Shown here one piece after another: positions 28,662 through 40,885 of a stretch of 64,000 nt of DNA; the first letter of the stretch is position 1; each line of letters starts with the position of its first letter. Below the pieces are notes generated by a model, which made no database searches, was not told the origin of the DNA, and saw only the letters and a list, made by a program, of their open reading frames with translations. The stretch comes from Escherichia phage vB_EcoM_ESCO8: sequence record OM386653.1. One strand, given 5' to 3'. The translations under genes were made by a program, and so were the position numbers.

Positions 28662-28827
28662 CTCCTAACTTAAGTATTCTACCTAGCAGATAAAAGAATG
28701 CCTGTATTGCACTAAGGAACATACACAAAATAATAAGAAGTCCGAAACCGACAAAACCTGCTTTTATCATTAACCAAACTATTCCAACCAATTCCCACAT
28801 TCTACACACCCTTACATGAATCGGCAA
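28645..28827 (-). CDS. small membrane protein (60 aa)
   Basis: ORF track; hydrophobic. Confidence 0.35.
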   Translation of the reverse strand: MPIHVRVCRMWELVGIVWLMIKAGFVGFGLLIILCMFLSAIQAFFYLLGRILKLGGDHEK

Positions 28828-29218
28828 TACGATCTTTCACCCACTGCAATCTCCCTGGGTTCGTATGGCAAGAATGTTTCTTACCTTCATCTTCATAACA
28901 CAGAAGATCATCATTAAAGGGCAGGAAGGAGGATAGCCCAGCACACGTGAATTGCAATTTCATCTCTTCCAGCGTTTTGCTACGAACCATTTTGAAATGT
29001 TCTATATCTTCTTGCGTAGGCTTTTTCTTTGACATAGCGGATGCCAGATAATCCATAAGGCAAATACACAAACCAACATTCTCACGATGCATTGAGGAAT
29101 GATCTTCCATCCATGCTTTGTAGAATTCTAACAGCAGTGGACTGCTAAGAGGAACACACATATCAGACTCCTTTATAAGATTACGTTTCATGCCACACAT
29201 CATATAGCATCTTTTCAT
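28802..29218 (-). CDS. paralog family A member 4 (138 aa)
   Basis: LLLEFYKAWMEDHS, GLCICLMDYL, FTCAGLSSFLPFN, RLQWVKDRIADSCKG motifs. Confidence 0.55.
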   Translation of the reverse strand: MKRCYMMCGMKRNLIKESDMCVPLSSPLLLEFYKAWMEDHSSMHRENVGLCICLMDYLASAMSKKKPTQEDIEHFKMVRSKTLEEMKLQFTCAGLSSFLPFNDDLLCYEDEGKKHSCHTNPGRLQWVKDRIADSCKGV

Positions 29219-29520
29219 CTGTTACAAGAACAGCAACATAGGAACATCATTAATGAAGGATTTAGTATAGGATTTCCCTATCAATTATTCTATATATACC
29301 TATTATTTTTAACACACCCCTTTGTACATAATATAGACAAATAAATATCTATGCCACAAAAATTTTCCGGTATACCCGATTTATTTCGACACACCCCCTT
29401 TTCATAAACGTAAAGTCAATAATATCAATAACTTGCCGCAAAATACTGCTCGCTTGCGAGAGGTGCTTAACGCGATTTTCAGCGCCCCCCGATTTCTGCC
29501 GACCGTCCCCCTCAAATATC

Positions 29521-29543
29521 AATGAGAATTATTATCATTTGCA
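29521..29543. promoter_or_regulatory. Fur-box-like palindromic site 1 (aatgagaattattatcatttgc)
   Basis: 14 of 19 match to GATAATGATAATCATTATC by eye; AATGA...TCATT inverted repeat. Confidence 0.35.
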
Positions 29544-29718
29544 TTATCATTCAATGACTTATAAGACTTTTGATTATTTTCTGAGCAAGAAAGGCACTAC
29601 TCACAACAAAACAGATAAATTCTAAGTAAATCAATGGCTTGGCATTTCTAAACATCTATATACACCTTGCCAAATGAAATGATCTGGCGTGAAATAGTGC
29701 CACCCGTGGAAGATAGCT

Positions 29719-29737
29719 GATAATGATTCTCATTTGC
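29719..29737. promoter_or_regulatory. Fur-box-like site 2 (gataatgattctcatttgc)
   Basis: Exact GATAATGAT half-site; 15 of 19 to Fur consensus; near-identical copy at 42212-42230. Confidence 0.4.
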
Positions 29738-30568
29738 ATACTTTCTGTACTATAAAACCGACTAAAAATCAAGATAATTCTATTTTATTGCGCTTTTAAG
29801 AAAGTAGGCTCAACAAATGGTAAGTTATATTGCAACAAATAGGGATAGTTATGCCCGACAAATAACAACAATAGTATGAAAAATCATCTATTCGGATGTA
29901 AATAATTTTGCGCAATAGCACTGTGTTCCCATAGCGCCCCCTGGAGGGTGGCGCATTATGATCATCAATGTCATTATTCACCATGTTTATTATTGCATAG
30001 CTTATATTATAGCCAATGTTCTAAACATTAGCTAATAATAACGCACCGCAACAATGTAAGGGAATACAATATACCATGTATATTGTTGCGCTTGCAATTG
30101 TTGCAAGCTACATAAGCACAGATAATAACTATCGGTGATGGTTATTATGTGGGGTGTGTAGTTGCGTTATTATTAGCCGCCTATGTGTCCGGCATAGGCT
30201 GCTAATGATACGCTTGCGAATTATATTTCTTGTTATAGTTATTGTATGGAATGATTACTGTATGAAATGATTATTTAGGTAATAGATAGGAAGGTAAAGA
30301 TTAGATCATAAATAGATAGGATATTAATTATTTAGTAATGTTACTAACAATTTAATAGTTACTTTGTGCAACAATTCGATAGATTATAGTTATAGTTTTA
30401 AAGGTTAGATAGATTATATTTAGCTTAGTAATGATTTATATTGGTTATTGTTGTTTAATATAAGGTTATCAATGAGATAGTAACAGTAAGTTATAAATAA
30501 AGGTGAGATAATTAGTTTTAATTTAGTTAGATAACTTATTATTTTATAGGTTAGATGGTCATAAGTTA

Positions 30569-30589
30569 AGAATGATTATCATTATTGCA
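30569..30589. promoter_or_regulatory. Fur-box-like site 3 (aagAATGATtATCATTATtgc)
   Basis: Perfect 13-bp palindrome AATGATtATCATT matching the Fur-box core. Confidence 0.4.
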
Positions 30590-30626
30590 TTATGCAGTTT
30601 ATTGCATAAATAATCAGCTATAAATA

Positions 30627-30645
30627 AGAATGATTATCATTTAAG
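30627..30645. promoter_or_regulatory. Fur-box-like site 4 (aagAATGATtATCATTtaa)
   Basis: Same perfect palindrome 45 bp from site 3. Confidence 0.4.
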
Positions 30646-30855
30646 AGGAAAGACAAGAAAAAGGCTGTTTTTTCCCGATAGTTACATTGAGAAATTAAAA
30701 ATAAGCGGTCTAAAACACGCTGTAAGCGCCTTATGATCTTCATGGTATGGTTGTTCATCTGCTCCTTGATTAGCTCGATACCGCGATCTATTCACTTTTT
30801 TCGGTGAACGTTTTTGATAGGTAAAAGCTATCATATTTATTTAGGTAAAAAGAAA

Positions 30856-30872
30856 GGGCGCTTTGTGCGCCC
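30856..30872 (-). terminator. terminator hairpin (gggcgcTTTGTgcgccc) at 3' end of minus-strand array
   Basis: GC hairpin followed by T-rich run on minus strand, just downstream of CDS 30889..31272. Confidence 0.5.
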
Positions 30873-30888
30873 TGGTATGAAATGTTAT

Positions 30889-31272
30889 TTACTGATAAGC
30901 AGGATCGTTTGTTATATCAATCCAATGAGCTAAATTAATTTTATTTTTTGCTTTCATTTTCTCGATCAAACGTTCGGCTAATGTCTCGGAACGAATATAA
31001 ACATAATCGCTAAAATCTTGCCCCGTTTCTTCGTCGATCATTTCCCTGTATTCAACCTTGCCGATAAACGCATGATTCAGCGCATAAGTTTTACCCGTGT
31101 ACCAGTTGTGTAAATGAATCTCGCATTTATAATCGTCGCTATAACCTTCGGTTGTTCTAACTTCAACCAAGTCACCTTTAAACACTGATAAGCACCACAT
31201 AGGATCACGATCTACAGCGCCGTTAAAATCTTTACCGTTTACAGTCGCTGCCAGGTTGATGATATTGCTCAT
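30889..31272 (-). CDS. hypothetical protein (127 aa)
   Basis: ORF track; first gene of PeSL-associated array. Confidence 0.5.
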   Translation of the reverse strand: MSNIINLAATVNGKDFNGAVDRDPMWCLSVFKGDLVEVRTTEGYSDDYKCEIHLHNWYTGKTYALNHAFIGKVEYREMIDEETGQDFSDYVYIRSETLAERLIEKMKAKNKINLAHWIDITNDPAYQ

Positions 31273-31597: not shown

Positions 31598-31656
31598 GCG
31601 GGAAACCATTTCCCGCCTACGTGATAAATAATAATGTAAGCGTGATCCGGTGTCAA
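31598..31656 (-). promoter_or_regulatory. PeSL-like cassette (TTGACA -35, -10, hairpin GCGGGAAAtggTTTCCCGC)
   Basis: Minus-strand reading: TTGACA, 16 nt, TTATTA, then GC hairpin, then RBS and start of 31348..31578. Confidence 0.55.
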
Positions 31657-31669
31657 TAGATAAAGTTAA

Positions 31670-31906
31670 TTATTTTGCATAATCAATAACAGCGCAGATT
31701 TTATCATTTACATCTTGTAAATCAAAGGCATAGGCGATCTTGCCTTGCAATTTTCCACGGGTGAAACAGATACGATAAACGCCGTTTTTACTATCCTCTT
31801 CTGATTTTAGTATTTTTGCAACCGTTGCAATTAACAGATCATCAGAGTAAGCGATAAAGCCACCACGTAAAATAGGTGATTTTTTGAGGATCATGACTTC
31901 TTTCAT
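31670..31906 (-). CDS. hypothetical protein (78 aa)
   Basis: ORF track. Confidence 0.45.
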   Translation of the reverse strand: MKEVMILKKSPILRGGFIAYSDDLLIATVAKILKSEEDSKNGVYRICFTRGKLQGKIAYAFDLQDVNDKICAVIDYAK

Positions 31907-32334
31907 TTTCTTTTTCCTGTTTTCGTTTTGGGTATGTTCTACCCTCTAAAAACAATATTAAACTGTTGTGATTTATCGGTCAATAGATGAGATTGTAAAG
32001 ATTTGATAGTTTATTCCTTTGATGTTTTGTTGTTTGATAGTTATTAGCTATCAATATATAGCGGGATCTTCCGGTGATTATCTTCCCCTGTCCCCAGGTG
32101 CCGCCCGTTCCATAATAATAATCAAAAGCAGGGTAAAAGGCAAGATAAAAAGCAAATTATTTCCTATGTGCTTTAAACGCTCTAGATAGCTTTATAACGG
32201 CTTTTTCATCCTGGTAAGGTGATTAATCATCACTACCTTGTTTAAGCGGTTATAATCGGTTTTAGGCTGTTTTACGCCACCTTTACGCCTATTCTTTACG
32301 TGTTGTTTCCATCGTGAAAAAAGAATACAAAAAA

Positions 32335-32351
32335 GGGCGCTTAGTGCGCCC
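32335..32351. terminator. bidirectional terminator hairpin (gggcgcTTAGTgcgccc)
   Basis: Flanked by A-run and T-run; downstream of CDS 32369..32758. Confidence 0.5.
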
Positions 32352-32368
32352 CTTTCTTTTACCGTGTA

Positions 32369-32758
32369 TTAATATTCGTTATAATACATCGCTAATTTTT
32401 CATCAAAAGCTGATTGACGATCCGCATACTCCCAGAACATTTCCTGATCCTGTTGTTCGTCATCATCCATCATGTTGAATTGCGCAACCTCCTGGTAAGT
32501 GATCGCTATATTATAACGATAGGTGATCTCTTCTGCGATGTTTTCCGGTAAAGATGATTCTACACTGTCTAACAGCATATCTAACATCATTTCAGCCGCT
32601 TTTTCATCATTATCAAAGCAGTAAGCAGACCATGCCGCATGATGTTTATTTTTCATCTTTGCAATCAAGCCGTTTACTAAAAAAGGCGCTACGTTGTTAA
32701 CGATACCCTGTAAAGATTGGAATTTTTCAACGTTAGAAACAGAAACCAGGTTGCGCAT
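32369..32758 (-). CDS. hypothetical acidic protein (129 aa)
   Basis: ORF track. Confidence 0.5.
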   Translation of the reverse strand: MRNLVSVSNVEKFQSLQGIVNNVAPFLVNGLIAKMKNKHHAAWSAYCFDNDEKAAEMMLDMLLDSVESSLPENIAEEITYRYNIAITYQEVAQFNMMDDDEQQDQEMFWEYADRQSAFDEKLAMYYNEY

Positions 32759-32782
32759 AGTATTTACCTTTTTTGATTACCT

Positions 32783-32842
32783 GGCGGGAAACCATTTCCC
32801 GCCTACGTGGTAAATAATACCATATTGGGGATCGGTGTCAAT
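32783..32842 (-). promoter_or_regulatory. PeSL-like cassette (hairpin GGCGGGAAAtggTTTCCCGCC)
   Basis: TTGACA at 32837-32842 (minus), TATTAT -10, hairpin 32783-32803, then RBS of 32369..32758. Confidence 0.55.
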
Positions 32843-32847
32843 ACTTT

Positions 32848-33234
32848 TTATTCAATATAAATCAAATTATCTTCACCAATGTAAGCATGCACCGATGGCA
32901 TTAATTTAGCTGCATTTGTTAGGCGGTTGGCGGTGTTAGTAGTGTATATTTCAGGGCGATCCCAAAAGCCTACGCCGTGACCGTTACGGGTGAAATGTAA
33001 GTCATTCCCGATCTGGTTTGCTGTTGCGCCGTCGCTCATTGCCTCAGAGATAGCAGCATCATTGGCATCACAATAAGCCGCTACGTCATGAATGATCCGC
33101 TGATGGGCTTGATCTGAAAAATCATAATCGTCTAAGTTATCAATAAAATAGCCTTCATGATCCCTGGCTGATTCAGCAAAAATAAAGGCTTCTTTATAAC
33201 CGTTGATGATTTCAATAATGATTTCAGTTTTCAT
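32848..33234 (-). CDS. hypothetical protein (128 aa)
   Basis: ORF track. Confidence 0.5.
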   Translation of the reverse strand: MKTEIIIEIINGYKEAFIFAESARDHEGYFIDNLDDYDFSDQAHQRIIHDVAAYCDANDAAISEAMSDGATANQIGNDLHFTRNGHGVGFWDRPEIYTTNTANRLTNAAKLMPSVHAYIGEDNLIYIE

Positions 33235-33464
33235 GCTGTACGCTCGACAATAATAATGGTTTGCGGGATCTCGTTTTCTACTACTAACAAGGCTTTTTTC
33301 TGTGTGATAGATATTTTAACACGTTGTAAAGTAGCGGTAAAATCTTTCATTTCATTATGCGCGGATTTAGTGCAATGCCAGATCTCAGGTTTACCTATTT
33401 GCAAGCCGCGTAAAAATTCTGTTTTACCTGTCTTATTCGTGATCATTTGATTCACCTTATCCAA
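33231..33464 (-). CDS. hypothetical protein (77 aa)
   Basis: ORF track. Confidence 0.4.
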   Translation of the reverse strand: MDKVNQMITNKTGKTEFLRGLQIGKPEIWHCTKSAHNEMKDFTATLQRVKISITQKKALLVVENEIPQTIIIVERTA

Positions 33465-33579
33465 TACCGTGGGAAGATAGGATCATGTTAGCCATAGTTG
33501 CAACCAATCCAACCGATAACGCCAGGCCAACTACTACAACCGTGAAAATTTTCTCTAACATGATTCTACCCTCATTAAT

Positions 33580-33641
33580 GGGCGTTGCCTTATTGCCCCG
33601 CCCTATGTCGTACACTTTACCAGATAACAGCATATTGTCAA
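33580..33641 (-). promoter_or_regulatory. PeSL-like cassette (variant hairpin)
   Basis: TTGACA at 33636-33641 (minus) followed by GC-rich dyad gggcg...cgccc. Confidence 0.4.
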
Positions 33642-33642
33642 A

Positions 33643-33837
33643 CTATTTTTTATAAGGGATCAGTAAACTTCTCGCTATTGCTTCACGTAAACCTTTACTT
33701 TTTATTAGATCTATTGTTGCAGGGTGGCAAGTAAAAGCCTTTGACCATTTTTGATCACCTGGTTTACGGGCGAAAATGTAAACTTCTCCGTCGATTTCAT
33801 CCCAACGAGTATTGCTTGTTAGTTTTTTAAGCGCCAT
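33643..33837 (-). CDS. hypothetical protein (about 64 aa)
   Basis: Track ORF 33643..33867 runs into the upstream hairpin; internal ATG (MALKKL) with aaaagagaaa RBS preferred. Confidence 0.4.
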   Translation of the reverse strand: MALKKLTSNTRWDEIDGEVYIFARKPGDQKWSKAFTCHPATIDLIKSKGLREAIARSLLIPYKK

Positions 33838-33858
33838 GCTGATTTCTCTTTTAGTTGT

Positions 33859-33916
33859 GAGCGGCACTATTGCCGCCCTACGAAATACATTCTACCCGAT
33901 TTATAATTGTTGTCAA
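33859..33916 (-). promoter_or_regulatory. PeSL-like cassette (hairpin GCGGCActatTGCCGC)
   Basis: TTGACA 33911-33916 (minus), hairpin 33861-33876. Confidence 0.55.
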
Positions 33917-33917
33917 A

Positions 33918-34187
33918 CTATTTTTTCAAGCTCGACCAGTCAAAACACGGGGCGATCTCGTTAAAACTTGTACCCTGTAAAGCACATAATTTTTTAGCAA
34001 TAGCCGCCGTAACCTGGCGTTGTACGCGAGGATCTGCTACTGATTGGAGAAAGTAGGCGGCTTTATATGTGATCATGCTTTCGCCTGTTTCCTTGTTAAC
34101 GTGGTGCACGGTTTTAGCCTTATCATCTTTTACCAGGGTGTAACCGGATTCGATGGCCTTGATTGCAACGTCCAAAGATATTTTCAT
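33918..34187 (-). CDS. hypothetical protein (89 aa)
   Basis: ORF track; aagagg RBS. Confidence 0.45.
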   Translation of the reverse strand: MKISLDVAIKAIESGYTLVKDDKAKTVHHVNKETGESMITYKAAYFLQSVADPRVQRQVTAAIAKKLCALQGTSFNEIAPCFDWSSLKK

Positions 34188-34206
34188 GATTTACCTCTTT
34201 ATTGAC

Positions 34207-34227
34207 GGCGGGGAATACTCCCCCGCC
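34207..34227 (-). promoter_or_regulatory. stand-alone GC hairpin (GGCGGGGaatactCCCCCGCC) in 5' leader
   Basis: Hairpin between two minus-strand genes with no TTGACA hexamer present. Confidence 0.4.
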
Positions 34228-34234
34228 TTATTAA

Positions 34235-34405
34235 TTACTCTTCATCGTCGCCGTTATAGTATTCAATGCCGTTTTCATCGGTTACAGTAATGTTAACGCC
34301 ACCGATAGCAACACGATCACGGGCAAACGTCATGGCTTCATTTAAATCTTCAGACCAAAAAATATTGTGACCTTTGCGCGATACGTAAAACATAGTTGGG
34401 ATCAT
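34235..34405 (-). CDS. hypothetical protein (about 56 aa)
   Basis: Track ORF 34235..34435 begins inside the hairpin; internal ATG (MIPTMF) preferred. Confidence 0.4.
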   Translation of the reverse strand: MIPTMFYVSRKGHNIFWSEDLNEAMTFARDRVAIGGVNITVTDENGIEYYNGDDEE

Positions 34406-34427
34406 GATTTGTTTCTCTTCTGTTATG

Positions 34428-34485
34428 AGCGGCACTATTGCCGCCCTATGTGATAAACTTTACTACGTTGTTTGCCTAGTGTCAA
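34428..34485 (-). promoter_or_regulatory. PeSL-like cassette (hairpin GCGGCActatTGCCGC)
   Basis: TTGACA 34480-34485 (minus), hairpin 34430-34445. Confidence 0.55.
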
Positions 34486-34486
34486 A

Positions 34487-34771
34487 TTATTTTTTAATGT
34501 TTTGCCCTACAAAATTAATCACTTCCTTAAGCTGTTTCTCAGTCATGATCGTGCCTGGCAATTCTTCTTTGATTTCTTCCGGTAGATAGATATTACCGCG
34601 CCAGGTTAATAAACAACCGTTTTGATCTTCGCAGATAGAATAAGAGAAGATCCACTCATTATCATTCTCAAGCTCCCAAAAGCACAAAAAATCTTCTTTC
34701 CCCAGGTTTTCAACGGTTAAACATAAGCCGCGACGTGCTGCATAGTTGGAAAGTGCTTTTGTGATCTTCAT
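34487..34771 (-). CDS. hypothetical protein (94 aa)
   Basis: ORF track. Confidence 0.45.
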   Translation of the reverse strand: MKITKALSNYAARRGLCLTVENLGKEDFLCFWELENDNEWIFSYSICEDQNGCLLTWRGNIYLPEEIKEELPGTIMTEKQLKEVINFVGQNIKK

Positions 34772-34790
34772 AGCTTATCTCTTCTTTTAA

Positions 34791-34854
34791 GGCGGGGGAA
34801 ACCATTTCCCCGCTCTATGAGATACAATATACTACCCGTTCAGTGTGCTGTCAA
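34791..34854 (-). promoter_or_regulatory. PeSL-like cassette (hairpin GGCGGGGGAAAccaTTTCCCCGC)
   Basis: TTGACA 34849-34854 (minus), hairpin 34791-34813. Confidence 0.55.
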
Positions 34855-35178
34855 TCAATAATCTTCAATATTTTCTACATTGACAAAAGCATGTTTATTT
34901 TCTAAGTTTTCGCCGTACCATTGCCCCATGTTGATTTCTGCGGTGCGCAACCAGGACATGCCGCGTTCTATCTTTTTGCTCGCAATGTCGATCCGGCTTT
35001 TGCATAGTGATTTAGCTTGCAATGTAAAAACACTATTGCCCTGTAATGCTTCCAGGTCATCATGTGCAAGGCGATACTCTTTAAAGCCTGATTCTATCAT
35101 TTCAATCGCATCAAGGAAACGAGCGCGATGATAGAAAAAATCAGAGTTATCCAAATAAACACCGATCACAGATTTCAT
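34855..35178 (-). CDS. hypothetical protein (about 107 aa)
   Basis: Track ORF 34855..35238; internal ATG (MKSVIG) preferred; TTGACA-N17-TAAACT promoter without hairpin upstream. Confidence 0.45.
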   Translation of the reverse strand: MKSVIGVYLDNSDFFYHRARFLDAIEMIESGFKEYRLAHDDLEALQGNSVFTLQAKSLCKSRIDIASKKIERGMSWLRTAEINMGQWYGENLENKHAFVNVENIEDY

Positions 35179-35507
35179 AATTTTACCCTTTTGTTTGCGG
35201 CCTTTGCCGTTTTCAAGATATAGTTTAAAGCATAACAAAAAATTGTCAAGCCTTTAAAGCGTACAACTATAAAACCTATTAAAACACAATGTATAATAAC
35301 ATGGCTATAGTAGCAATACAACATAAAGCCATGCTTGTTTTCCTTCCTTCCTCGTATGCTGGATTTATTACGCTATATTGTACGGGAATAATTTTCATGC
35401 TGTTTCCTTAATGTCTTAAAACGTGGTTTACAATAGAAACAAGCATACAGAAGAAAAAAGATCCTGTCAATAAGATACCGAAAAATAAATGTAAATAGGG
35501 CATGGTT

Positions 35508-35810
35508 TTACTCCTTAAAAAAATCATTGACAATTAAACTGATAACGCCCAGCACCAGATCACCAGGTAGCGCCGCGCTTTCGTTGTTGCTTGTTTGCAC
35601 TTCCTCACTAGTACCAGCATGATAAATCGCATGGTAAGCAATAGTATAATAACCTTTCGTTATTTCTTTAAGATTAATGATTAGCACGTTATTTGTTTCA
35701 TCTTGAAACAATTTAGCGGTGATAGTATTGTTTTCTTTTACACTATCGACTTTTATTGATGGATCATTTACACCAGAAAAAAGAAAAAACGTTTTAGCTA
35801 TGCCGTTCAT
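35508..35810 (-). CDS. hypothetical protein (100 aa)
   Basis: ORF track. Confidence 0.45.
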   Translation of the reverse strand: MNGIAKTFFLFSGVNDPSIKVDSVKENNTITAKLFQDETNNVLIINLKEITKGYYTIAYHAIYHAGTSEEVQTSNNESAALPGDLVLGVISLIVNDFFKE

Positions 35811-35857
35811 GTAGTTCTCCTTTGTTGTGTGTATCTTATAACGTGCTTTCTATGTTG

Positions 35858-36259
35858 TCAATCTTTTATCTCGGTGCATTTTGCTAGGGTATACGTTGCA
35901 AGTGCTGACACTAGTTTTTCATTGCTACGATCTGCGGCTGTACTGTGTACTTTTTGAATACTTTTTAACCACGGCGTAAAATTTTGAGTAGTGAGCACAC
36001 TGGTAATAATTTCACATGGCACATCTTCATTTAAGCCATTAACAATAGATTTATCTATTTTTGCCGTTAGTTGTGTAACAGCACCATAAGCGATCATGTG
36101 TGAATCCTCCATGATTTCATCGGGGATCGCATTATTAATAAGCATGACGTTTTCCATTGCATCAACGGCGCTTAATTCTGCTACTGTGGAGGATATCGCC
36201 GCGCTAGATGTTCCAACCATGCCAAAAGAGATTAAACCAGCGATCAATAATTTTTTCAT
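35858..36259 (-). CDS. putative secreted protein (signal-peptide-like N-terminus)
   Basis: Track ORF 35858..36271; start at MKKLLIAGLISFGMVGTSSAA after gagg RBS. Confidence 0.45.
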   Translation of the reverse strand: MKKLLIAGLISFGMVGTSSAAISSTVAELSAVDAMENVMLINNAIPDEIMEDSHMIAYGAVTQLTAKIDKSIVNGLNEDVPCEIITSVLTTQNFTPWLKSIQKVHSTAADRSNEKLVSALATYTLAKCTEIKD

Positions 36260-36267
36260 TTCTTGCC

Positions 36268-36450
36268 TCATATATGTTTTATTGAGATTATATTGTCACT
36301 ATATACAACGTTTTTCAACGTGTCAATAAAAATCTTATTGCCTTCAATCCCCAGGATCACGCCGCTAGTTATGAAGCCATATTGATCACGATATCTGGCG
36401 CATAACCTTTGCCCCTGGGCTAGTGCCTTGCTTATTTCTTCTAATCTCAT
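36268..36450 (-). CDS. hypothetical protein (60 aa)
   Basis: ORF track. Confidence 0.35.
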   Translation of the reverse strand: MRLEEISKALAQGQRLCARYRDQYGFITSGVILGIEGNKIFIDTLKNVVYSDNIISIKHI

Positions 36451-36540
36451 TTTAAAGCTCCTGTAAAGCCGTCTAACGTTGATTTATAGGCTTGCCCTGG
36501 CGTTACCATTGCCTATGGGTAACAAGCCTCTATATAAGCT

Positions 36541-36566
36541 AAAAGGGCGCTTATTGCGCCCTTTTT
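36541..36566. terminator. bidirectional terminator (aaaagggcgcTTATtgcgcccttttt)
   Basis: Perfect hairpin flanked by A4 and T5. Confidence 0.55.
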
Positions 36567-36567
36567 G

Positions 36568-36705
36568 TTATTCGTTCCAGTATCTTTTTGTGCTGCGATC
36601 TCTTTTTGTTTTGTTCCGCTTATCGCCTTTTTTGGTGATCTCTTCGTTCCAATTTTTACGCGCCTTGCTGCGGTTGAATTTTTCGATCTGCTGTGATGCG
36701 TTCAT
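36568..36705 (-). CDS. small basic protein (45 aa)
   Basis: Not in track; aagagga RBS; Lys/Arg-rich; followed by terminator. Confidence 0.4.
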   Translation of the reverse strand: MNASQQIEKFNRSKARKNWNEEITKKGDKRNKTKRDRSTKRYWNE

Positions 36706-36720
36706 GTTTTTTCCTCTTAA

Positions 36721-37080
36721 TTACGCCACGTTATGCTGTTTTGCCAGGGTTACGATCATGCTTGCAATATATAACCAATAATTTTCCCGCTCACGGGTAA
36801 CGGTTGTTTCTTTACTTGTTTCTTTTATGTACTTCCATTCAATTAACAAGTGATCGATCTCGTTATAATCAAAAGCAATATTGATTTCTGACGGTAAACC
36901 TTGTAACCAGGAGGCTATCGCCTTGATCATGTTATGATTGTAACGTTTTTGATTATCGGGATACCAGTATTCAGATTTAAAACGGCGCATCAGTTCGGTG
37001 ATCTTTTCTTTTTCTGTTGTAGTACCATTAAAAGAAATAGCCGACACAATGTAAGTTTTAATTGCTTTTACTGATTTCAT
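36721..37080 (-). CDS. hypothetical protein (119 aa)
   Basis: ORF track. Confidence 0.5.
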   Translation of the reverse strand: MKSVKAIKTYIVSAISFNGTTTEKEKITELMRRFKSEYWYPDNQKRYNHNMIKAIASWLQGLPSEINIAFDYNEIDHLLIEWKYIKETSKETTVTRERENYWLYIASMIVTLAKQHNVA

Positions 37081-37100
37081 AATCTTATCTCTTTATTGAT

Positions 37101-37159
37101 GGCGGGAAACCATTTCCCGCCGTTGTTGTTACTTTACTTATAAATCATGCTACTGTCAA
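37101..37159 (-). promoter_or_regulatory. PeSL-like cassette (hairpin GGCGGGAAAccaTTTCCCGCC)
   Basis: TTGACA 37154-37159 (minus), hairpin 37101-37121. Confidence 0.55.
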
Positions 37160-37166
37160 GCGGATA

Positions 37167-37337
37167 TTATTTATTTTTTAACGTTAATGTTCCCAGCTTA
37201 TCAGCGTGACGCAGACCAGGGAAGATCCATTTTCCTGATTCATCTTTTACCGGGGCTTTAAGCGTAGCGCCCAAGTTGGCGGCATTAACTTTACGTGCAA
37301 CGTTGCGAGCGGCTTCACGGGTGGCGAAAGTGATCAT
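37167..37337 (-). CDS. small protein (56 aa)
   Basis: Not in track; sits between two cassettes. Confidence 0.4.
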   Translation of the reverse strand: MITFATREAARNVARKVNAANLGATLKAPVKDESGKWIFPGLRHADKLGTLTLKNK

Positions 37338-37408
37338 GGTGTTTTCCTCTTCTCTTTGTTAGGCGGTTGGCTATTCCACCGCCTTGATGAATACAGTTTA
37401 CTCTATTT

Positions 37409-37567
37409 TTATTTCTTTGCAACTACTTTTATATTTTCTTTCTTTGCCTCTTCCACCTGATCCGCCCACTGCTTACCCCACGTTTGAGCGTTATAGTGAT
37501 ATTGACAAAGAGCAACGCCACGTTTTAAACCAGAGATAGACTTTTTACCACATTGGCAAGTTTTCAT
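37409..37567 (-). CDS. small zinc-binding protein (52 aa, CQCGKK...CQYH)
   Basis: Not in track; aaggga RBS. Confidence 0.4.
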   Translation of the reverse strand: MKTCQCGKKSISGLKRGVALCQYHYNAQTWGKQWADQVEEAKKENIKVVAKK

Positions 37568-37578
37568 TTTGTGATCCC

Positions 37579-37794
37579 TTAGTTGATAATTGTCAAAGTA
37601 AAATCATAATCTTTTGACAGTTTATATTGCACCTTGTTACCGTATATGTCACCTTTACGTAAAGATCCACGGATACCGATAACATCCTTCACGTCTTTTA
37701 AATTTTTCACGCCTGTAATGTCTTTGTTGAAATACTCGTCATCTGAAAATAAAACTTGACTTGCATTTTTTAACAGTGTGCGGATATTAGCCAT
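37579..37794 (-). CDS. hypothetical protein (about 71 aa)
   Basis: Track ORF 37579..37842 reads into hairpin; internal ATG (MANIRT) preferred. Confidence 0.4.
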   Translation of the reverse strand: MANIRTLLKNASQVLFSDDEYFNKDITGVKNLKDVKDVIGIRGSLRKGDIYGNKVQYKLSKDYDFTLTIIN

Positions 37795-37815
37795 TTTGAT
37801 AATCTCTCTTACTAT

Positions 37816-37874
37816 GAGCGGCACTATTGCCGCCCTATGCATTACATTTTACTGATTTTAGTTATCTTGTCAAG
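37816..37874 (-). promoter_or_regulatory. PeSL-like cassette (hairpin GCGGCActatTGCCGC)
   Basis: TTGACA 37869-37874 (minus), hairpin 37818-37833. Confidence 0.55.
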
Positions 37875-37881
37875 ATTATTT

Positions 37882-38109
37882 TTAGTTTAATCCATCCAGG
37901 CACAACAAGCGATCAACATTCAGATCGGTTAGGCTAATCGTTGGCACCTGGTAGGATTCGATGTACTCAACGCTCGACCATTGCCCGAAGTTAGCGACCG
38001 CCCAGCTATTCAAGGAAGAGTGAAGATCATCCCCTTTCTTCTCGGTGATAACTGCTACTACCTGGGAGCTTCCAACCGTACCGGATACGCGAACAATAAC
38101 GATAGCCAT
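37882..38109 (-). CDS. hypothetical protein (75 aa)
   Basis: ORF track. Confidence 0.4.
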   Translation of the reverse strand: MAIVIVRVSGTVGSSQVVAVITEKKGDDLHSSLNSWAVANFGQWSSVEYIESYQVPTISLTDLNVDRLLCLDGLN

Positions 38110-38131
38110 AATGATAACCTTTCTTTGATTT

Positions 38132-38191
38132 GGCGGGAAACCATTTCCCGCCCTATGTGATATATCTTACACTAATTTAAAACGTTGTCAA
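38132..38191 (-). promoter_or_regulatory. PeSL-like cassette (hairpin GGCGGGAAAccaTTTCCCGCC)
   Basis: TTGACA 38186-38191 (minus), 16 nt, TAAGAT, hairpin 38132-38152. Confidence 0.55.
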
Positions 38192-38286
38192 ATTATTTTC
38201 TATTTCTTCCGTAATAGCCTAATTTATGATCTAAGCTAAAACGTTTTGTGAGATAGGTCGAACGATGTTTCATTTTTATATCTCCT

Positions 38287-38526
38287 TTACATTCCAACCA
38301 TCGCGGCGCGGATTGCAGTTTTACTGAACTTGTAACCGTCTGGCGTTTTATCTTGATCCATACTTTCAAGAAATAACATCATATCACGCGCTGCGTCATT
38401 CTTATTGGTGTTAGCTGCGATAAATTCACGCGCAAGATTATAAAAACCTTCATCATTGTTGATCCAAAGGCTTACATTCCAATGAGTTTTGTTTTTGTGA
38501 CCTAAGAACATTTTTGATTTAGCCAT
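38287..38526 (-). CDS. hypothetical protein (79 aa)
   Basis: ORF track. Confidence 0.45.
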   Translation of the reverse strand: MAKSKMFLGHKNKTHWNVSLWINNDEGFYNLAREFIAANTNKNDAARDMMLFLESMDQDKTPDGYKFSKTAIRAAMVGM

Positions 38527-38548
38527 GATGTTAATCTCTTTTTCAGTG

Positions 38549-38609
38549 AGGCGGGAACTATTCCCGCTCTCTATGTAATACAGTTTACTCTTTTTATTCG
38601 TGCTGTCAA
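38549..38609 (-). promoter_or_regulatory. PeSL-like cassette (hairpin GCGGGAActaTTCCCGC)
   Basis: TTGACA 38604-38609 (minus), hairpin 38549-38572. Confidence 0.5.
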
Positions 38610-38614
38610 TGCTT

Positions 38615-38980
38615 TTATAAATCTTTTTTACGTTTTACATCGCTTGCATGACTGTATACAGTGATCCCATTGTCACGGCAAAAACGGGAAAGGTAGGCAT
38701 AATTTGAAAACTCTTTACCTTCCAGGTTGATAACCTTGCTAAATTCTTCCATTGCTACAGTGTCAAAGTGATCCCCGTATCCATATTGGAACGGCACGTT
38801 TACTACTTCGATCAGTTTACCGCCGATCTCAACGTCAACCATCAAAGAGAAATAAGTATTACCATAAGACTTTTGAAACCAGCGACGGGCGCTAATATGT
38901 ACCGCTTCAATGCTGGATAGTTCAATTTTAGCAGTGTTAGCCAGGGTAGCATAAGCAGAAACATTGATATTTTTAGCCAT
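38615..38980 (-). CDS. hypothetical protein (121 aa)
   Basis: ORF track. Confidence 0.5.
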   Translation of the reverse strand: MAKNINVSAYATLANTAKIELSSIEAVHISARRWFQKSYGNTYFSLMVDVEIGGKLIEVVNVPFQYGYGDHFDTVAMEEFSKVINLEGKEFSNYAYLSRFCRDNGITVYSHASDVKRKKDL

Positions 38981-39075
38981 AGTCTTTAATCTCTTTTGAT
39001 TAGTTAGGAGTATTCCCGATAAAAGTTATTATGCTTGTACTATCGTTCGTTGTCAATAGCACAAGACTAAAACTT

Positions 39076-39255
39076 TTAACGATAATCATCATAGGCTTTA
39101 TTGACCTGGCGAATATAGCATTCAAAAGCTAGATCAATAGATTTATATTCACGGATATAATCACCATAGGAAACCACATACATTTCTATAGCTTCCTCAT
39201 ATGCCAAGATGATAGAATCTAAACCTACGATCTCAGTCTTTGCAATAATAGCCAT
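39076..39255 (-). CDS. small acidic protein (59 aa)
   Basis: Not in track; between cassettes. Confidence 0.4.
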   Translation of the reverse strand: MAIIAKTEIVGLDSIILAYEEAIEMYVVSYGDYIREYKSIDLAFECYIRQVNKAYDDYR

Positions 39256-39401
39256 GCTTTTATTCCTTAGTAATGTTTCAATCTATATAAGCATTATAGC
39301 TTACTGATTTCAGGTGTCAAGTGATTTTTTATTTCACCTTATGGGGCGTTGCCCCGCTTTATGTGGTACATATTACGGGGCTTGTTTGCATATGTCAAGC
39401 C

Positions 39402-39947
39402 TTACACAATACAATTTTCATAATTTTTTAGGGCTTGTCTTTTTTCCTCTTCTGTCGGCATGTATGGCTGGATCTCTTCCTCTTCCAGGGTAGGCATGAT
39501 TTCTTCCTCTTCCTCCTGGTCTTCCTCTTGCGCTACGGCAACAAGTTTATTGATCTTCTCCTGGGCTTTAATCAATTTTGCATCTAGCACCATTTTAGCG
39601 GTGTTGTATACCGTCCATGCCATGCGTTTTTCTTCGTATGCTTTATCTAGTGCGGCTAATTTAGCGGGATACTCTTCTAACACCTTAAAAGCCGGATCAA
39701 TGCTATATAAGGGATTATTTTTAGCGTCATCGCTTGGATCTGCGGCGCTTGCAATGTCAGCGTTACCATTTGCCAGCCAACCAGGGCGAACGGATCGCGT
39801 CTTTGTGTGCCCGTTGCTCTTTGCCGCTCGATTCCCTATCTGCTCCCCGCTGTACCCTTCCATGTGATCGATCATGTCATCTGGTATTATGCGCGGATCA
39901 TTAGCGTCATGCTTTACCCATGACTGGATCACATATTCACGCCCCAT
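39402..39947 (-). CDS. hypothetical protein with acidic Glu-rich C-terminal region (181 aa)
   Basis: ORF track. Confidence 0.5.
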   Translation of the reverse strand: MGREYVIQSWVKHDANDPRIIPDDMIDHMEGYSGEQIGNRAAKSNGHTKTRSVRPGWLANGNADIASAADPSDDAKNNPLYSIDPAFKVLEEYPAKLAALDKAYEEKRMAWTVYNTAKMVLDAKLIKAQEKINKLVAVAQEEDQEEEEEIMPTLEEEEIQPYMPTEEEKRQALKNYENCIV

Positions 39948-40209
39948 GTTCGTTCGCCTCTTCTGTTAGTAGTTTACACACCTTAAACATGCTTGCCGCG
40001 TCTTTTGACGGTAGCCAGCCTATGCGATACACTCCAGGATCTGGATTCGTTATATCTGTTAATTGAGCGTTACGATGATTAAAGATAGTGTAACCGCCAC
40101 CAGCACGGGGATAAACATTATCTTTAAACCTGATAGCGTATCTCGCCAGGTTGAACGTTGTAGCATGTTCAAAAGCGATCACATTATCAAAAACTTTTAG
40201 AAAAAACAA
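39937..40209 (-). CDS. hypothetical protein (90 aa)
   Basis: ORF track. Confidence 0.4.
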   Translation of the reverse strand: MFFLKVFDNVIAFEHATTFNLARYAIRFKDNVYPRAGGGYTIFNHRNAQLTDITNPDPGVYRIGWLPSKDAASMFKVCKLLTEEANEHGA

Positions 40210-40211
40210 GA

Positions 40212-40358
40212 TTATCCTCCCCAGCGTTTAAAGCCCGTTGCACGGTTATTTTTTAACTCTCGTTTTAGTCTCTTGCAACGGTTTACAAGTGCAAACCGTG
40301 CCGGAGTTGTAACAGTAGCGCCGTTTTTGGTGTGAATACTCATTACATATTGTTTCAT
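40212..40358 (-). CDS. small basic protein (48 aa)
   Basis: Not in track; downstream of hairpin 40376-40396. Confidence 0.35.
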   Translation of the reverse strand: MKQYVMSIHTKNGATVTTPARFALVNRCKRLKRELKNNRATGFKRWGG

Positions 40359-40799: not shown

Positions 40800-40821
40800 T
40801 GCATTACCCTTTCTTTGATTT

Positions 40822-40882: not shown

Positions 40883-40885
40883 GCC

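What the first reader, a model, noticed from the sequence alone, without database searches (positions are those of the whole stretch)
29219..30888. 1.67 kb non-coding AT-rich region with four Fur-box-like palindromes
Phage genomes are densely coding, yet this stretch has no convincing ORF on either strand. It contains gataatgattctcatttgc (exact GATAATGAT half-site) and two perfect AATGATtATCATT palindromes 45 bp apart, all close to the Fur-box consensus GATAATGATAATCATTATC, plus GC dyads (gcgccCCCTGGAGGGTggcgc at about 29930; gcctatgTGTCCGGcataggc at about 30180). Possible roles: iron-responsive control of phage transcription, titration of host Fur, binding sites for a phage dimeric regulator, or a replication/packaging locus.
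Basis: partly seen in the sequence, partly recalled or inferred. Interest (0 to 1): 0.6.

Follow-up and report, generated by a model that had tools for sequence, protein, structure and literature searches.

The report
Phage genome ends carrying Fur boxes
The gene-free stretch is where the two physical ends of this phi92-like phage genome meet (a 343-bp terminal repeat plus spacers), and it carries near-perfect copies of the host iron regulator Fur's binding site, a motif found elsewhere in the genome only in one other non-coding block and, unexpectedly, in the same relative places in phage T5.

Summary
Window 29219-30888 has no conserved ORF. Its four palindromes match the 19-bp Fur consensus at 14-16/19, far above composition-matched shuffles.

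**What the region is.** It is the concatemer junction of a Justusliebigvirus genome. In gene order it holds the terminator of the last gene, a ~1-kb AT-rich right-arm spacer, a 343-bp direct terminal repeat (29468-29810) with conserved GTTR^AGC boundaries, and a 249-bp leader before the first gene.

**What the palindromes are.**
- A matrix built only from the phage sites ranks the fepB/entC, fhuA, fecI and fur operators first in their K-12 segments, and cirA second.
- Genome-wide, all ten strong sites lie in this block and in a second non-coding block (41.2-42.7 kb).
- The two blocks bracket a 10.6-kb block with 21 near-consensus sigma-70 promoters.
- Two sites sit 82 and 65 bp inside the repeat boundaries, and a sister genus has the same geometry.
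- The second array follows a conserved promoter/RNA-like module across two subfamilies.
- T5's "direct repeat C" elements at its injection-stop region are the same motif.

**Interpretation.** Host Fur binding is likely but untested. A boundary or roadblock role is my inference. I found no prior description.

The parts
30889..31272 (-). Last gene of the right genome arm (phi92 gp248 homolog, T4 gp30.8-like).
   Evidence: ORF; annotated as Phi92_gp248 in PATM; Pfam PF06019, E = 5e-29.
30855..30873 (-). Intrinsic terminator ending the right-arm early transcription unit.
   Evidence: Terminator scan; annotated as a terminator in PATM and Schickermooser; the hairpin is conserved in the sister genus.
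29811..30854 (-). Right-arm non-coding spacer (about 30% GC, short AT-rich repeats) between the terminator and the terminal repeat.
   Evidence: The part at 30086-30872 is about 71% conserved in Phapecoctavirus.
30618..30758 (-). Doubtful 46-aa micro-ORF (AAGGAG-cag-ATG) whose 3' end overlaps Fur-type site 4.
   Evidence: Annotated only in Bas61. Intact in the four close relatives whose fetched sequence covers it. No start or SD in Schickermooser, although the frame stays open there.
30626..30644 (.). Fur-type operator 4 (AAGAATGATTATCATTTAA), 14/19 to the consensus.
   Evidence: 19.0 bits. The box persists as AATGATAACCATTATC (15/19) in Schickermooser.
30568..30586 (.). Fur-type operator 3 (AAGAATGATTATCATTATT), 16/19 to the consensus.
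   Evidence: 20.5 bits.
30179..30199 (.). GC dyad gcctatgTGTCCGGcataggc. No T-run follows and its role is unknown.
   Evidence: lies in a 50-bp bin with 0% divergence among close relatives.
29934..29954 (.). GC dyad gcgccccctggagggtggcgc, about 125 bp outside the repeat boundary. Its role is unknown.
   Evidence: present in UAB_1. Schickermooser has a different GC dyad (CCGCCacaGGCGG) 8 nt from its cut site.
29819..29868 (.). Hypervariable, indel-rich patch immediately outside the left repeat boundary.
   Evidence: 62% divergence in this 50-bp bin against a 5% mean; deletion in UAB_1.
29468..29810 (-). Direct terminal repeat (one collapsed copy). The physical ends are at 29810 (left end, 5'-AGCCTAC...) and 29468 (right end, ...CGCGTTA-3'). 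Both cuts fall in a GTTR^AGC context.
   Evidence: About 98% identical to the annotated 343-bp DTR of UAB_1. The PhageTerm-based BME3 record starts at 29469. Boundary motifs are conserved in Schickermooser's exact 329-bp DTR.
29719..29737 (.). Fur-type operator 2 (GATAATGATTCTCATTTGC), 16/19, centred 82 bp inside the left repeat boundary.
   Evidence: 22.9 bits. Relatives carry the 17/19 version. The sister genus has a site 81 bp from its boundary.
29524..29542 (.). Fur-type operator 1 (GAGAATTATTATCATTTGC), 15/19, centred 65 bp inside the right repeat boundary and inverted relative to operator 2.
   Evidence: I3, 94% complementary; 21.4 bits. The sister genus has a pair about 66 bp from its boundary. 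It is the only piece that still aligns in L007.
29219..29467 (-). Left-arm leader between the repeat and the first gene. It contains two copies of AAAGGGGTGTGT (29313-29320 and 29390-29397 on the minus strand) and no strong sigma-70 promoter.
28802..29218 (-). First gene of the left genome arm. Its counterparts are UAB_1 gp001 and Schickermooser gp001/gp002.
31656..41498 (-). Promoter-dense immediate-early block bracketed by the two non-coding blocks. It has 21 sigma-70 promoters scoring >=10/12 (19 with a perfect TTGACA), all pointing toward the right terminus.
   Evidence: 21 on the minus strand vs 3 on the plus strand of the same interval, and 9 in the 12 kb beyond region 1.
41879..42006 (+). 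Conserved promoter P1 (TTGACA-17-TATACT, 41879-41907) plus a near-invariant GC-rich RNA-like core (41917-42006), antisense to the flanking genes.
   Evidence: Conserved at 75-85% in Stephanstirmvirinae and Vequintavirinae; no Rfam family.
42050..42128 (+). Second promoter-like element (TTGCTT-16-TATTCT, 42050-42077) and a GC-rich hairpin (42087-42128) directly before the array.
   Evidence: Alignment A2: the hexamers are conserved and the spacer varies.
42140..42253 (.). Array of six or more Fur-type operators centred at 42168, 42192, 42215, 42221, 42238 and 42244. Two pairs are offset by 6 bp and units are spaced 23-24 bp apart. The array lies 12.7 kb (8.6%) from the right terminus.
   Evidence: Homologous arrays are present in L014, KP13-26, W70, phiTE, KB57 and GAP31.
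42270..42477 (+). Three 67-bp direct repeats (TTGAAC-TTTTCATTTTCAAAAT...AAAAACTTTAAATAA) following the array.

Best explanation
SHOWN: what the region is. The 1.67-kb gap is the junction where the physical ends of a phi92-like (Justusliebigvirus) genome meet. This phage packages DNA with short direct terminal repeats. Read in gene orientation (window minus strand), the gap contains:
- the terminator of the last right-arm gene;
- a ~1.04-kb AT-rich spacer;
- the 343-bp terminal repeat (29810->29468), cut in conserved GTTR^AGC contexts;
- a 249-bp leader before the first left-arm gene.

SHOWN: what the palindromes are. They are statistically indistinguishable from the best host Fur operators. 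Genome-wide they occur only in this block and in a second non-coding block at 41.2-42.7 kb. Together the two blocks bracket a 10.6-kb terminal block of immediate-early genes driven by 21 near-consensus host-type promoters. Two operators lie at conserved distances (about 82 and 65 bp) inside the repeat boundaries.

INFERRED: how it works. Host Fe2+-Fur is abundant and is present before any phage protein is made. I propose that it occupies these near-consensus sites on the entering and replicating DNA and builds multi-dimer complexes that act as boundary elements. These would work as transcriptional roadblocks or insulators, possibly also as barriers to H-NS spreading. They would confine host RNA polymerase to the terminal early block and keep the terminal repeat and concatemer junction clear of read-through. 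The effect would be iron-dependent. At high genome copy number the same sites would unavoidably titrate Fur as a by-product.

My confidence by layer: terminal-repeat junction about 0.9; Fur is the relevant ligand about 0.6; boundary/roadblock role about 0.3.
For: Terminal repeat:
- The UAB_1 343-bp DTR maps to 29468-29810 at about 98% identity.
- BME3 has a 342-bp DTR by PhageTerm, and its record starts at 29469.
- Stephanstirmvirinae 'terminate with direct terminal repeats'.
- Many records open inside this gap.
- The GTTR^AGC boundary contexts are shared with Schickermooser's exact 329-bp DTR.

Fur-type identity:
- The sites match the consensus at 13-16/19 and exceed shuffles of the region itself.
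- In 131 kb of K-12 DNA, a PWM built only from phage sites ranks fepB|entC, fhuA and fecI first in their segments and cirA second. Five of the six K-12 positions at >=14 bits are classical Fur operators. It also ranks fur's own operator first in its locus.
- Pairs offset by 6 bp occur, as in real Fur clusters.

Confinement and conservation:
- All 10 sites at >=14 bits in the 146.7-kb Bas61 genome lie in the two non-coding blocks.
- The sister genus has the same geometry inside its repeat (81 and about 66 bp).
- In L007 only the box still aligns.
- Arrays follow the conserved module in five further genera, on Klebsiella, Cronobacter and Pectobacterium hosts.

Boundary position:
- 21 strong minus-strand promoters lie between the two blocks, against 3 on the other strand.
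- The same one-sided promoter density is seen in distant relatives.
- Sites 3 and 4 lie 220-280 bp past the terminator.

A host ligand rather than a phage ligand:
- There is no Fur homolog in Bas61, T5 or the window.
- No T5 pre-early protein has a homolog in Bas61.
- Unrelated T5-like phages nevertheless carry the same motif.
Against: - No binding data exist. Everything about Fur occupancy is inference from sequence.
- No site overlaps a strong sigma-70 promoter. Only 9/12 matches overlap, and those are expected because the box itself contains -10-like hexamers. In E. coli, 83% of Fur clusters overlap promoters.
- Within the genus the boxes are not significantly more conserved than their flanks: 2.8% vs 5.3% divergence, permutation p = 0.39.
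- Right-arm sites 3 and 4 are only weakly kept in the sister genus (PWM 8.6-10.6 bits, though 15/19 to the consensus).
- The 6-bp offsets partly follow from the hexamer-repeat nature of the motif.
- A roadblock role has not been demonstrated for arrays like these.
- A lytic phage that depends on an iron-sensing host protein is not obviously advantageous.
- A small phage DNA-binding protein shared between families would escape my homology tests.
Confidence: 0.45

Rival explanations
1. Fur sponge. The near-consensus sites exist to titrate host Fur as the genome replicates. That would derepress the host Fur regulon (iron uptake, RyhB, nrdHIEF) and feed the phage's iron-dependent ribonucleotide reductases. 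The position of the sites would matter only in that they must lie in non-coding DNA.
For: - There are ten to twelve very high-scoring sites per genome, several of them overlapping pairs. Multiplied by hundreds of genome copies, this approaches the cellular Fur pool of about 5-10 thousand molecules (established knowledge, and the principle of the FURTA assay).
- The phage encodes class I and class III ribonucleotide reductases and a glutaredoxin.
- A virulent Pseudomonas myovirus, PAK_P4, strongly derepresses Fur-controlled siderophore operons by an unknown mechanism.
Against: - A sponge does not explain the conserved geometry inside the terminal repeat.
- It does not explain the fixed position next to the conserved module in seven genera.
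- It does not explain the parallel placement in T5. T5 degrades host DNA early (abstract listed), so derepressing host genes would be pointless there.
- Titration is negligible at one genome copy early in infection.
Confidence: 0.15
2. The motif is read by a phage-encoded protein, or by a host protein other than Fur, as a cis-acting signal for DNA transactions at the genome ends. Candidates are terminase positioning at the repeat boundaries and a T5-like pause or stop in DNA delivery at the 8.6% array. The resemblance to the Fur box would then be coincidental or mimicry.
For: - Two inverted sites lie at conserved distances from both cut sites in two genera.
- In T5, all strong sites lie 240 bp from the left end and on the calculated first-step-transfer shear point at 9618, next to the 7.9% nick.
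- The array in this phage lies 8.6% from the right end, at the inner border of the early block.
- The early region encodes many uncharacterised small proteins, including annotated putative DNA binders with no Pfam match.
Against: - No protein shared between the T5 pre-early region and Bas61 was found, and there are no A1/A2 homologs.
- There are no DnaA boxes in either block.
- The match to host operators extends over the whole 19 bp and is as good as the best host site. That is unnecessary for an unrelated protein.
- Only T5 pre-early proteins were compared, not the whole T5 proteome.
Confidence: 0.2
3. One or both non-coding blocks are replication origins. Tandem promoters would prime an R-loop next to an AT-rich unwinding region with iterons (as at the T7 primary origin or T4 oriF/oriG), and the palindromes would be origin-binding sites.
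For: - Region 2 has two tandem promoter-like elements followed by 30% GC DNA, the palindrome array and three 67-bp direct repeats.
- Region 1 has a local GC-skew blip (+0.23 at 30-31 kb) and many short AT-rich repeats.
Against: - The cumulative GC-skew extremes lie at about 17 kb and 47 kb, where transcription direction switches, not at either block.
- There are no DnaA boxes.
- There is no origin-binding protein link.
- Nothing explains why an origin protein's site should equal the Fur box.
- Region 1 is already explained by the terminal repeat.
Confidence: 0.1
4. The boxes are functionless by-products of AT-rich, repeat-prone non-coding DNA.
For: Fur boxes are AT-rich hexamer repeats. The within-genus test shows no significant extra conservation. 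Single 16-mer matches across IMG/VR occur at about the chance rate.
Against: - The sites exceed composition-matched shuffles by one to three orders of magnitude.
- They are absent from the other 143 kb of Bas61, including other intergenic DNA.
- They persist at homologous positions in genera whose flanking non-coding DNA no longer aligns.
- They recur in T5-like phages.
Confidence: 0.03

Closest known systems
E. coli Fur operators and Fur-site clusters (19-bp box GATAATGATAATCATTATC; Chen et al. 2007, PMC2189734)
   Same: The sequence is the same: 13-17/19 to the consensus. A matrix made from the phage sites retrieves the entC/fepB, fepD/entS, fhuA, fecI, cirA and fur operators. Overlapping sites offset by 6 bp form clusters of about 100 bp, as in footprinted host clusters.
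   Different: The sites lie on a virulent phage, in a terminal repeat and a non-coding boundary block. They are not upstream of iron genes and do not overlap strong -35/-10 elements. They score above almost all sampled host operators. Binding is untested.
Untranslated Repeat Region 3 of the phage T5 terminal repeat (direct repeat C copies 1-4, palindromes E-I; injection-stop region)
   Same: T5's DRC repeats are the same motif (e.g. TTAAATGAGAATCATTATCATTTGCAT). All strong T5 sites lie in the terminal repeat: one pair 240 bp from the end and a cluster at 7.8-7.9% of the genome. Here the sites lie 65-260 bp from the end and at 8.6%. In both phages the array sits at the inner border of a terminal block of host-transcribed early genes that read toward the terminus.
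   Different: The phage families are unrelated and I found no shared pre-early proteins. T5's repeat is 10.1 kb against 343 bp here. T5's paired DnaA boxes and IRC/IRD repeats are absent here. Two-step transfer is demonstrated only for T5. The T5 literature I read does not mention Fur.
Short direct-terminal-repeat junctions of DTR-packaging phages (UAB_1 and BME3 in this genus; T7-type in general)
   Same: The repeat is flanked by non-coding DNA, with defined cut sites at both boundaries. The last-gene terminator lies on one side and the first early gene on the other.
   Different: The non-coding span is unusually long (1.67 kb), and host-regulator-type operators lie inside the repeat. No strong early promoter sits next to the repeat. 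In T7 the strong promoters A1-A3 lie just inside the left end (established knowledge).
Host transcription-factor sites on lytic phage genomes (PhoB boxes and NtcA sites in cyanophages; recalled from memory, not checked here)
   Same: The concept is the same: a virulent phage carries binding sites for a host nutrient-sensing regulator.
   Different: Those sites sit in promoters of auxiliary metabolic genes and regulate them. These sites sit in non-coding terminal and boundary DNA with no adjacent iron-related gene.
IHF sites at lambda cos (host architectural protein assisting terminase; established knowledge)
   Same: Host DNA-binding-protein sites lie at fixed distances from the packaging cut site.
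   Different: The protein, motif and packaging strategy all differ. The analogy covers only the two sites inside the repeat, not the 8.6% array.

Membership tests
Fur operator (Fur box) | Match to the 19-bp consensus at the level of footprinted sites (roughly >=11-13/19). | tested here: met
   The four sites in region 1 match at 14-16/19. All ten sites match at 13-16/19. Relatives carry a 17/19 version of site 2. Counts exceed region-matched shuffles.
Fur operator (Fur box) | Statistical equivalence to experimentally known host operators. | tested here: met
   The phage-only PWM ranks fepB|entC, fhuA, fecI and fur first in their K-12 segments, and cirA second. Five of six K-12 positions at >=14 bits in 131 kb are classical Fur operators.
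Fur operator (Fur box) | Clusters of overlapping sites offset by 6 (or 3) bp. | tested here: met
   Offsets of 6 bp occur at 42215/42221 and 42238/42244, and more weakly at 29527/29533/29539 and 30629/30635. The same offsets occur in relatives and in T5. This is partly a built-in property of a hexamer-repeat motif.
Fur operator (Fur box) | Overlap with the -35/-10 elements of a sigma-70 promoter (true of 83% of E. coli clusters). | tested here: not met
   Only 9/12 promoter-like matches overlap the sites, and none reaches >=10/12.
Fur operator (Fur box) | Metal-dependent binding of Fur (EMSA, footprint, FURTA, ChIP) and an iron-responsive output. | not testable with these tools
   No experimental data were found for these phages.
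Direct terminal repeat / concatemer junction of Stephanstirmvirinae | Identity to a repeat found at both ends of a linear genome whose termini were determined. | tested here: met
   The UAB_1 DTR (1-343 = 147427-147769) aligns to window 29468-29810. BME3 has a 342-bp DTR by PhageTerm and its record starts at 29469.
Direct terminal repeat / concatemer junction of Stephanstirmvirinae | Conserved sequence context at both repeat boundaries. | tested here: met
   TGTTG^AGC and CGCGTTA^AGCAC are present in the window, UAB_1 and Schickermooser.
Direct terminal repeat / concatemer junction of Stephanstirmvirinae | Termini and doubled read coverage in this very genome. | not testable with these tools
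   No reads are available. The window holds a single collapsed copy of the repeat.
T5-type first-step-transfer boundary (injection stop region) | A large untranslated repeat-rich block about 8% from a terminus, bordering a terminal block of host-transcribed early genes. | tested here: met
   The array lies 12.7 kb from the right end, which is 8.6% of 147.8 kb. The early block has 21 strong promoters. The T5 cluster is at 9485-9630, or 7.8-7.9%.
T5-type first-step-transfer boundary (injection stop region) | Paired DnaA boxes within IRC/IRD inverted repeats. | tested here: not met
   There is no TTWTNCACA in either non-coding block, and the window total of 10 is below the 11.4 expected by chance.
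T5-type first-step-transfer boundary (injection stop region) | A1/A2 pre-early proteins. | tested here: not met
   tblastn of 17 T5 pre-early ORFs against Bas61 gave only noise.
T5-type first-step-transfer boundary (injection stop region) | Demonstrated two-step DNA transfer. | not testable with these tools
   This requires blender or time-resolved DNA-entry experiments.
Phage replication origin | GC-skew inflection, DnaA boxes or iterons, and promoter-primed AT-rich unwinding DNA. | tested here: inconclusive
   The skew extremes at about 17 kb and 47 kb track the direction of transcription, and there are no DnaA boxes. However, region 2 does have tandem promoters, AT-rich DNA and 67-bp repeats.
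Known non-coding RNA families | A match to an Rfam covariance model, or a tRNA/tmRNA. | tested here: not met
   No match reached a gathering score in the window. E-value scans of both blocks gave only chance-level hits. No tRNA was found.

The most novel reading that the evidence does not exclude
Fur-type operator arrays may be a shared cis-acting signal for staged genome delivery or expression in unrelated virulent enterobacterial phages. T5's long-mysterious injection-stop region would consist largely of Fur boxes. rV5/phi92-like myoviruses would carry the equivalent: an operator pair near the entering end and an array about 8% in, at the inner edge of a host-transcribed pre-early block. On this reading, host Fur (or a protein that reads Fur boxes) gates the transition from the first-entering segment to the rest of the genome, making infection progress iron-sensitive.
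Probability: 0.1. Interest if true: 0.85.

Novelty: new variant of a known kind. Interest (0 to 1): 0.64.

Why it matters
That the gap is the terminal-repeat junction is ordinary, and the repeat itself is already published for sister phages. The new part is that the repeat and one other non-coding block hold all of the genome's near-consensus Fur operators.

This arrangement is conserved across Stephanstirmvirinae and Vequintavirinae, and it recurs at the equivalent positions in T5-like phages. I found no paper describing it.

If Fur binds, this would be a case of a virulent phage using an abundant host metal sensor as a structural or regulatory component of its non-coding control regions. That would have consequences for phage performance in iron-limited niches (gut, urine, blood), which is relevant to therapy with phi92/rV5-type phages.

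It also turns a 60-year-old puzzle, what the T5 injection stop signal is, into simple experiments: Fur footprinting of T5 9460-9640, and first-step transfer in a fur mutant.

Tried and rejected
- **Hidden gene.** Rejected. Six of nine small ORFs break in close relatives, and the best one (46 aa) has no start or SD in the sister genus.
- **Known RNA family or tRNA.** None found.
- **Classical Fur-repressed promoter.** No strong promoter overlaps any site.
- **Origin of replication from skew or DnaA boxes.** No support.
- **Within-genus purifying selection on the boxes.** Uninformative at 5% divergence, p = 0.39.
- **blastn of the array against 5,426 E. coli genomes.** Only short, uninformative hits; the tool is too blunt for 19-bp operators.
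- **Phage-encoded Fur.** None in Bas61, T5 or the window.
- **DNA-binding protein shared with T5.** No T5 pre-early protein matches Bas61.
- **Annotated phage 'transcription factors'.** No Pfam match.
- **Exact 16-mer scan of IMG/VR.** Single hits occur at about the chance rate; only clusters are meaningful.
- **Literature.** Four searches for Fur boxes in lytic phages, phi92, T5 or terminal repeats found nothing describing this.
- **Misassembly.** Rejected. The window simply joins the ends through one copy of the repeat.
Full report
**1. What is in the sequence**

The window is a phi92-like E. coli myovirus (Stephanstirmvirinae, Justusliebigvirus). The best matches are about 95% identical, e.g. 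Bas61 EmilieFrey.

Between the minus-strand genes at 30889-31272 and 28802-29218 there is no ORF longer than 62 aa. The stretch has 32.5% GC.

Six of the nine small ORFs are broken in at least one close relative. A 46-aa frame (30618-30758, minus strand) has AAGGAG-cag-ATG and stays intact within the genus. In the sister genus the start and SD are missing although the frame stays open, so I treat it as doubtful.

No Rfam family or tRNA matches.

**2. The palindromes are Fur-grade operators**

The four sites match GATAATGATAATCATTATC at 14-16/19.

Against 500 dinucleotide-preserving shuffles of the region itself:

| Threshold | Observed | Expected |
|---|---|---|
| >=14/19 | 8 | 0.34 |
| >=15/19 | 3 | 0.05 |
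| >=16/19 | 2 | 0.002 |

As an independent test I built a position weight matrix from phage sites only and scanned 131 kb of E. coli K-12:
- The top hit is the fepB|entC promoter region in the ent/fep locus, the fhuA promoter in its segment and the fecI promoter in its segment.
- cirA ranks second in its segment, fepD|entS third and fepA|fes sixth (or seventh, depending on how overlapping hits are merged).
- Five of the six K-12 positions at >=14 bits are classical Fur operators.
- fur's own operator is the top hit in its locus.

The phage sites score 16.5-23.8 bits leave-one-out, as high as the best host operator, entC at 23.5.

**3. The motif is confined to two non-coding blocks**

The same motif forms a dense array at 42140-42253, inside a second non-coding block at about 41.2-42.7 kb. 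In the 64-kb window, every site at >=15 bits lies in one of the two blocks.

In the complete 146,666-bp genome of Bas61, all ten sites at >=14 bits lie in the homologous blocks. The next best score is 13.9.

**4. Region 1 is the junction of the physical genome ends**

- Many GenBank records open inside this gap, including phi92 itself, whose numbering runs gp248 | gp001 across it.
- Salmonella phage UAB_1 annotates a 343-bp direct terminal repeat at both ends. It aligns to window 29468-29810 at about 98% identity.
- BME3 has a 342-bp repeat by PhageTerm, and its record begins at window 29469.
- A 2025 paper states that Stephanstirmvirinae terminate with direct terminal repeats.

In gene orientation the gap therefore reads:
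1. terminator, 30873-30855;
2. right-arm spacer, 30854-29811;
3. terminal repeat, 29810-29468;
4. left leader, 29467-29219;
5. first gene.

The Phapecoctavirus Schickermooser has an exact 329-bp repeat. Aligned with the window, both boundaries share the contexts TGTTG^AGC and CGCGTTA^AGCAC.

A hypervariable patch (29819-29868) lies just outside the left boundary.

**5. Sites inside the repeat have conserved geometry**

Operators 2 and 1 are inverted relative to each other. They are centred 82 and 65 bp inside the two boundaries. Schickermooser has Fur-like sites 81 and about 66 bp inside its boundaries, although the two repeats are otherwise only about 60% alike.

In the more distant L007, the only piece of region 1 that still aligns is the 26 bp holding a box. 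Loci L007-L010 all keep Fur-like sites in their equivalent gaps.

Among close relatives the boxes are not significantly more conserved than their flanks (2.8% vs 5.3%, p = 0.39). At 5% divergence this test has no power.

**6. The two blocks bracket an immediate-early block**

On the minus strand there are 21 sigma-70 promoters scoring >=10/12 (19 with a perfect TTGACA) between 41498 and 31656. All point toward the right terminus. The opposite strand of the same interval has 3. The 12 kb beyond region 1 has 9. Region 1 itself has none.

The array therefore lies at the upstream border of this block, 12.7 kb (8.6% of 147.8 kb) from the right end. Operators 4 and 3 lie 220-280 bp past its terminator.

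**7. Region 2 holds a deeply conserved module**

A ~125-240-nt piece of region 2 is conserved at 75-85% identity in 267 phage records. The hosts include Klebsiella, Salmonella, Cronobacter, Pectobacterium and Erwinia.

Alignment of seven genus-level representatives shows, on the strand antisense to the genes:
- an A-tract and P1 (TTGACA-17-TATACT, 11/12);
- a near-invariant GC-rich core (41917-42006);
- a second promoter-like element with conserved hexamers and a variable spacer;
- a GC hairpin;
- the operator array.

In W70, KP13-26, phiTE, KB57 and GAP31, Fur-like sites of 15-25 bits follow the conserved element within about 60-250 bp. Strong promoters lie almost only on one side of the module.

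RNAalifold on 18 copies finds one clean covarying pair (A-U/G-C, 9:9). Most of the other predicted pairs are invariant. The element is strongly constrained, but an RNA function is not proven.

Three 67-bp direct repeats follow the array.

**8. The T5 connection**

A T5-like phage (Gostya9) matched the array by blastn. The hit falls in its ~2-kb untranslated gap, which carries an array with the same 23/29-bp spacing and 6-bp-offset pairs.

In T5 itself, the annotated 'direct repeat C' copies 1-4 and palindromes E-I (9468-9637) are this motif.

In 111.5 kb of unique T5 sequence, all six sites at >=14 bits lie in the terminal repeat:
- one overlapping pair at 237/243, which is 240 bp from the left end;
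- the cluster at 9485-9630, on the calculated first-step-transfer shear point (9618) and beside the 7.9% nick at 9661-9668.

Davison's analysis of this region emphasises DnaA boxes and never mentions Fur.

The two families share no detectable pre-early protein. Neither encodes a Fur homolog. This phage has no DnaA boxes in either block.

A 16-mer scan of IMG/VR gives single hits at about the chance rate. However, 27 of the 120 sampled loci carry three or more sites within 400 bp, including a 346-kb contig.

**9. Interpretation**

Shown:
- the identity of region 1 as the terminal-repeat junction;
- the Fur-grade nature of the sites, their confinement to two blocks and their conservation;
- their border position relative to the early block.

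Inferred:
- that host Fur is the ligand. I favour this because unrelated phages of Fur-box-sharing hosts carry the motif without a shared phage binder;
- that the complexes act as boundaries or roadblocks. Fur is also known to antagonise H-NS at ftnA; I recall this from memory and did not check it here.

The absence of overlapping strong promoters argues against simple promoter repression.

Rivals:
- a Fur sponge, supported by site number and affinity, the phage's iron-dependent reductases and the PAK_P4 precedent. It is weakened by the positional conservation and by T5's early destruction of host DNA;
- a non-Fur reader acting in end processing or DNA delivery;
- a replication origin;
- chance.

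**10. Novelty**

The terminal repeat itself is known. Four literature searches found no description of Fur-type operators in these phages, in T5's repeat region or in lytic phage termini.

I rate this a new variant of a known kind: host-regulator sites on a lytic phage genome, but placed in terminal and boundary non-coding DNA rather than in gene promoters.

Noticed in passing
window 41879-42128 (+); also L014, L024-L028, L029-L042: A deeply conserved promoter plus GC-rich RNA-like core (CGCCAcCCCACGGCGwAAAGGCGGGGCTAAC...), antisense to the flanking genes. It is conserved at 75-85% across Stephanstirmvirinae and Vequintavirinae (267 records). There is no Rfam family, and I found one clean covarying pair. 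It may be an undescribed phage sRNA or an origin or primer transcript.
   Followed up: partly
window 42270-42477 (+): Three 67-bp direct repeats, each with TTGAAC-TTTTCATTTTCAAAAT and AAAAACTTTAAATAA. The latter resembles the T4-type late promoter TATAAATA. They follow the operator array directly, and their function is unknown.
   Followed up: no
window 31656-41498 (-): Twenty-one near-consensus sigma-70 promoters (19 with a perfect TTGACA) in 10 kb, roughly one per small gene, all pointing toward the right genome end. This is an unusually promoter-dense immediate-early block.
   Followed up: partly
L022/L023 (T5 AY587007: 237-243 and 9468-9637): T5's annotated 'direct repeat C' copies and palindromes E-I are Fur-box-like. 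They coincide with the calculated first-step-transfer shear point, and a further pair lies 240 bp from the left end inside dmp. No other site at >=14 bits occurs in 111.5 kb of unique T5 sequence.
   Followed up: partly
window 29313-29320 and 29390-29397 (-), 42652-42659 (-): The motif AAAGGGGTGTG(T/G) occurs twice in the left leader before the first gene and once at the start of region 2. It is a possible phage-specific promoter or terminator element.
   Followed up: no
window 29819-29868: A hypervariable, indel-rich patch (62% divergence against a 5% mean) lies immediately outside the terminal-repeat boundary. This may reflect recombination or repair at the packaging cut.
   Followed up: no
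GenBank MG065639, MG065645, MG065656, MG065689: Four records labelled 'Campylobacter phage' (host C. jejuni) are about 96% identical to this E. coli phage over the region. The host labels look doubtful, for example through a contaminating coliphage.
   Followed up: no
L121, L051, L116, L066, L112 (IMG/VR contigs): Other viral contigs of varied GC (0.21-0.53) and size, including a 346-kb contig, carry 5-8 Fur-type sites within 400 bp. Such arrays may be widespread in phage DNA.
   Followed up: partly
window 30618-30758 (-): A possible 46-aa micro-gene with a good Shine-Dalgarno sequence lies just after the terminator. Its last codons (LNDNHS) are the translation of Fur-type operator 4. It is annotated only in Bas61, and the sister genus has no start or SD.
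   Followed up: yes
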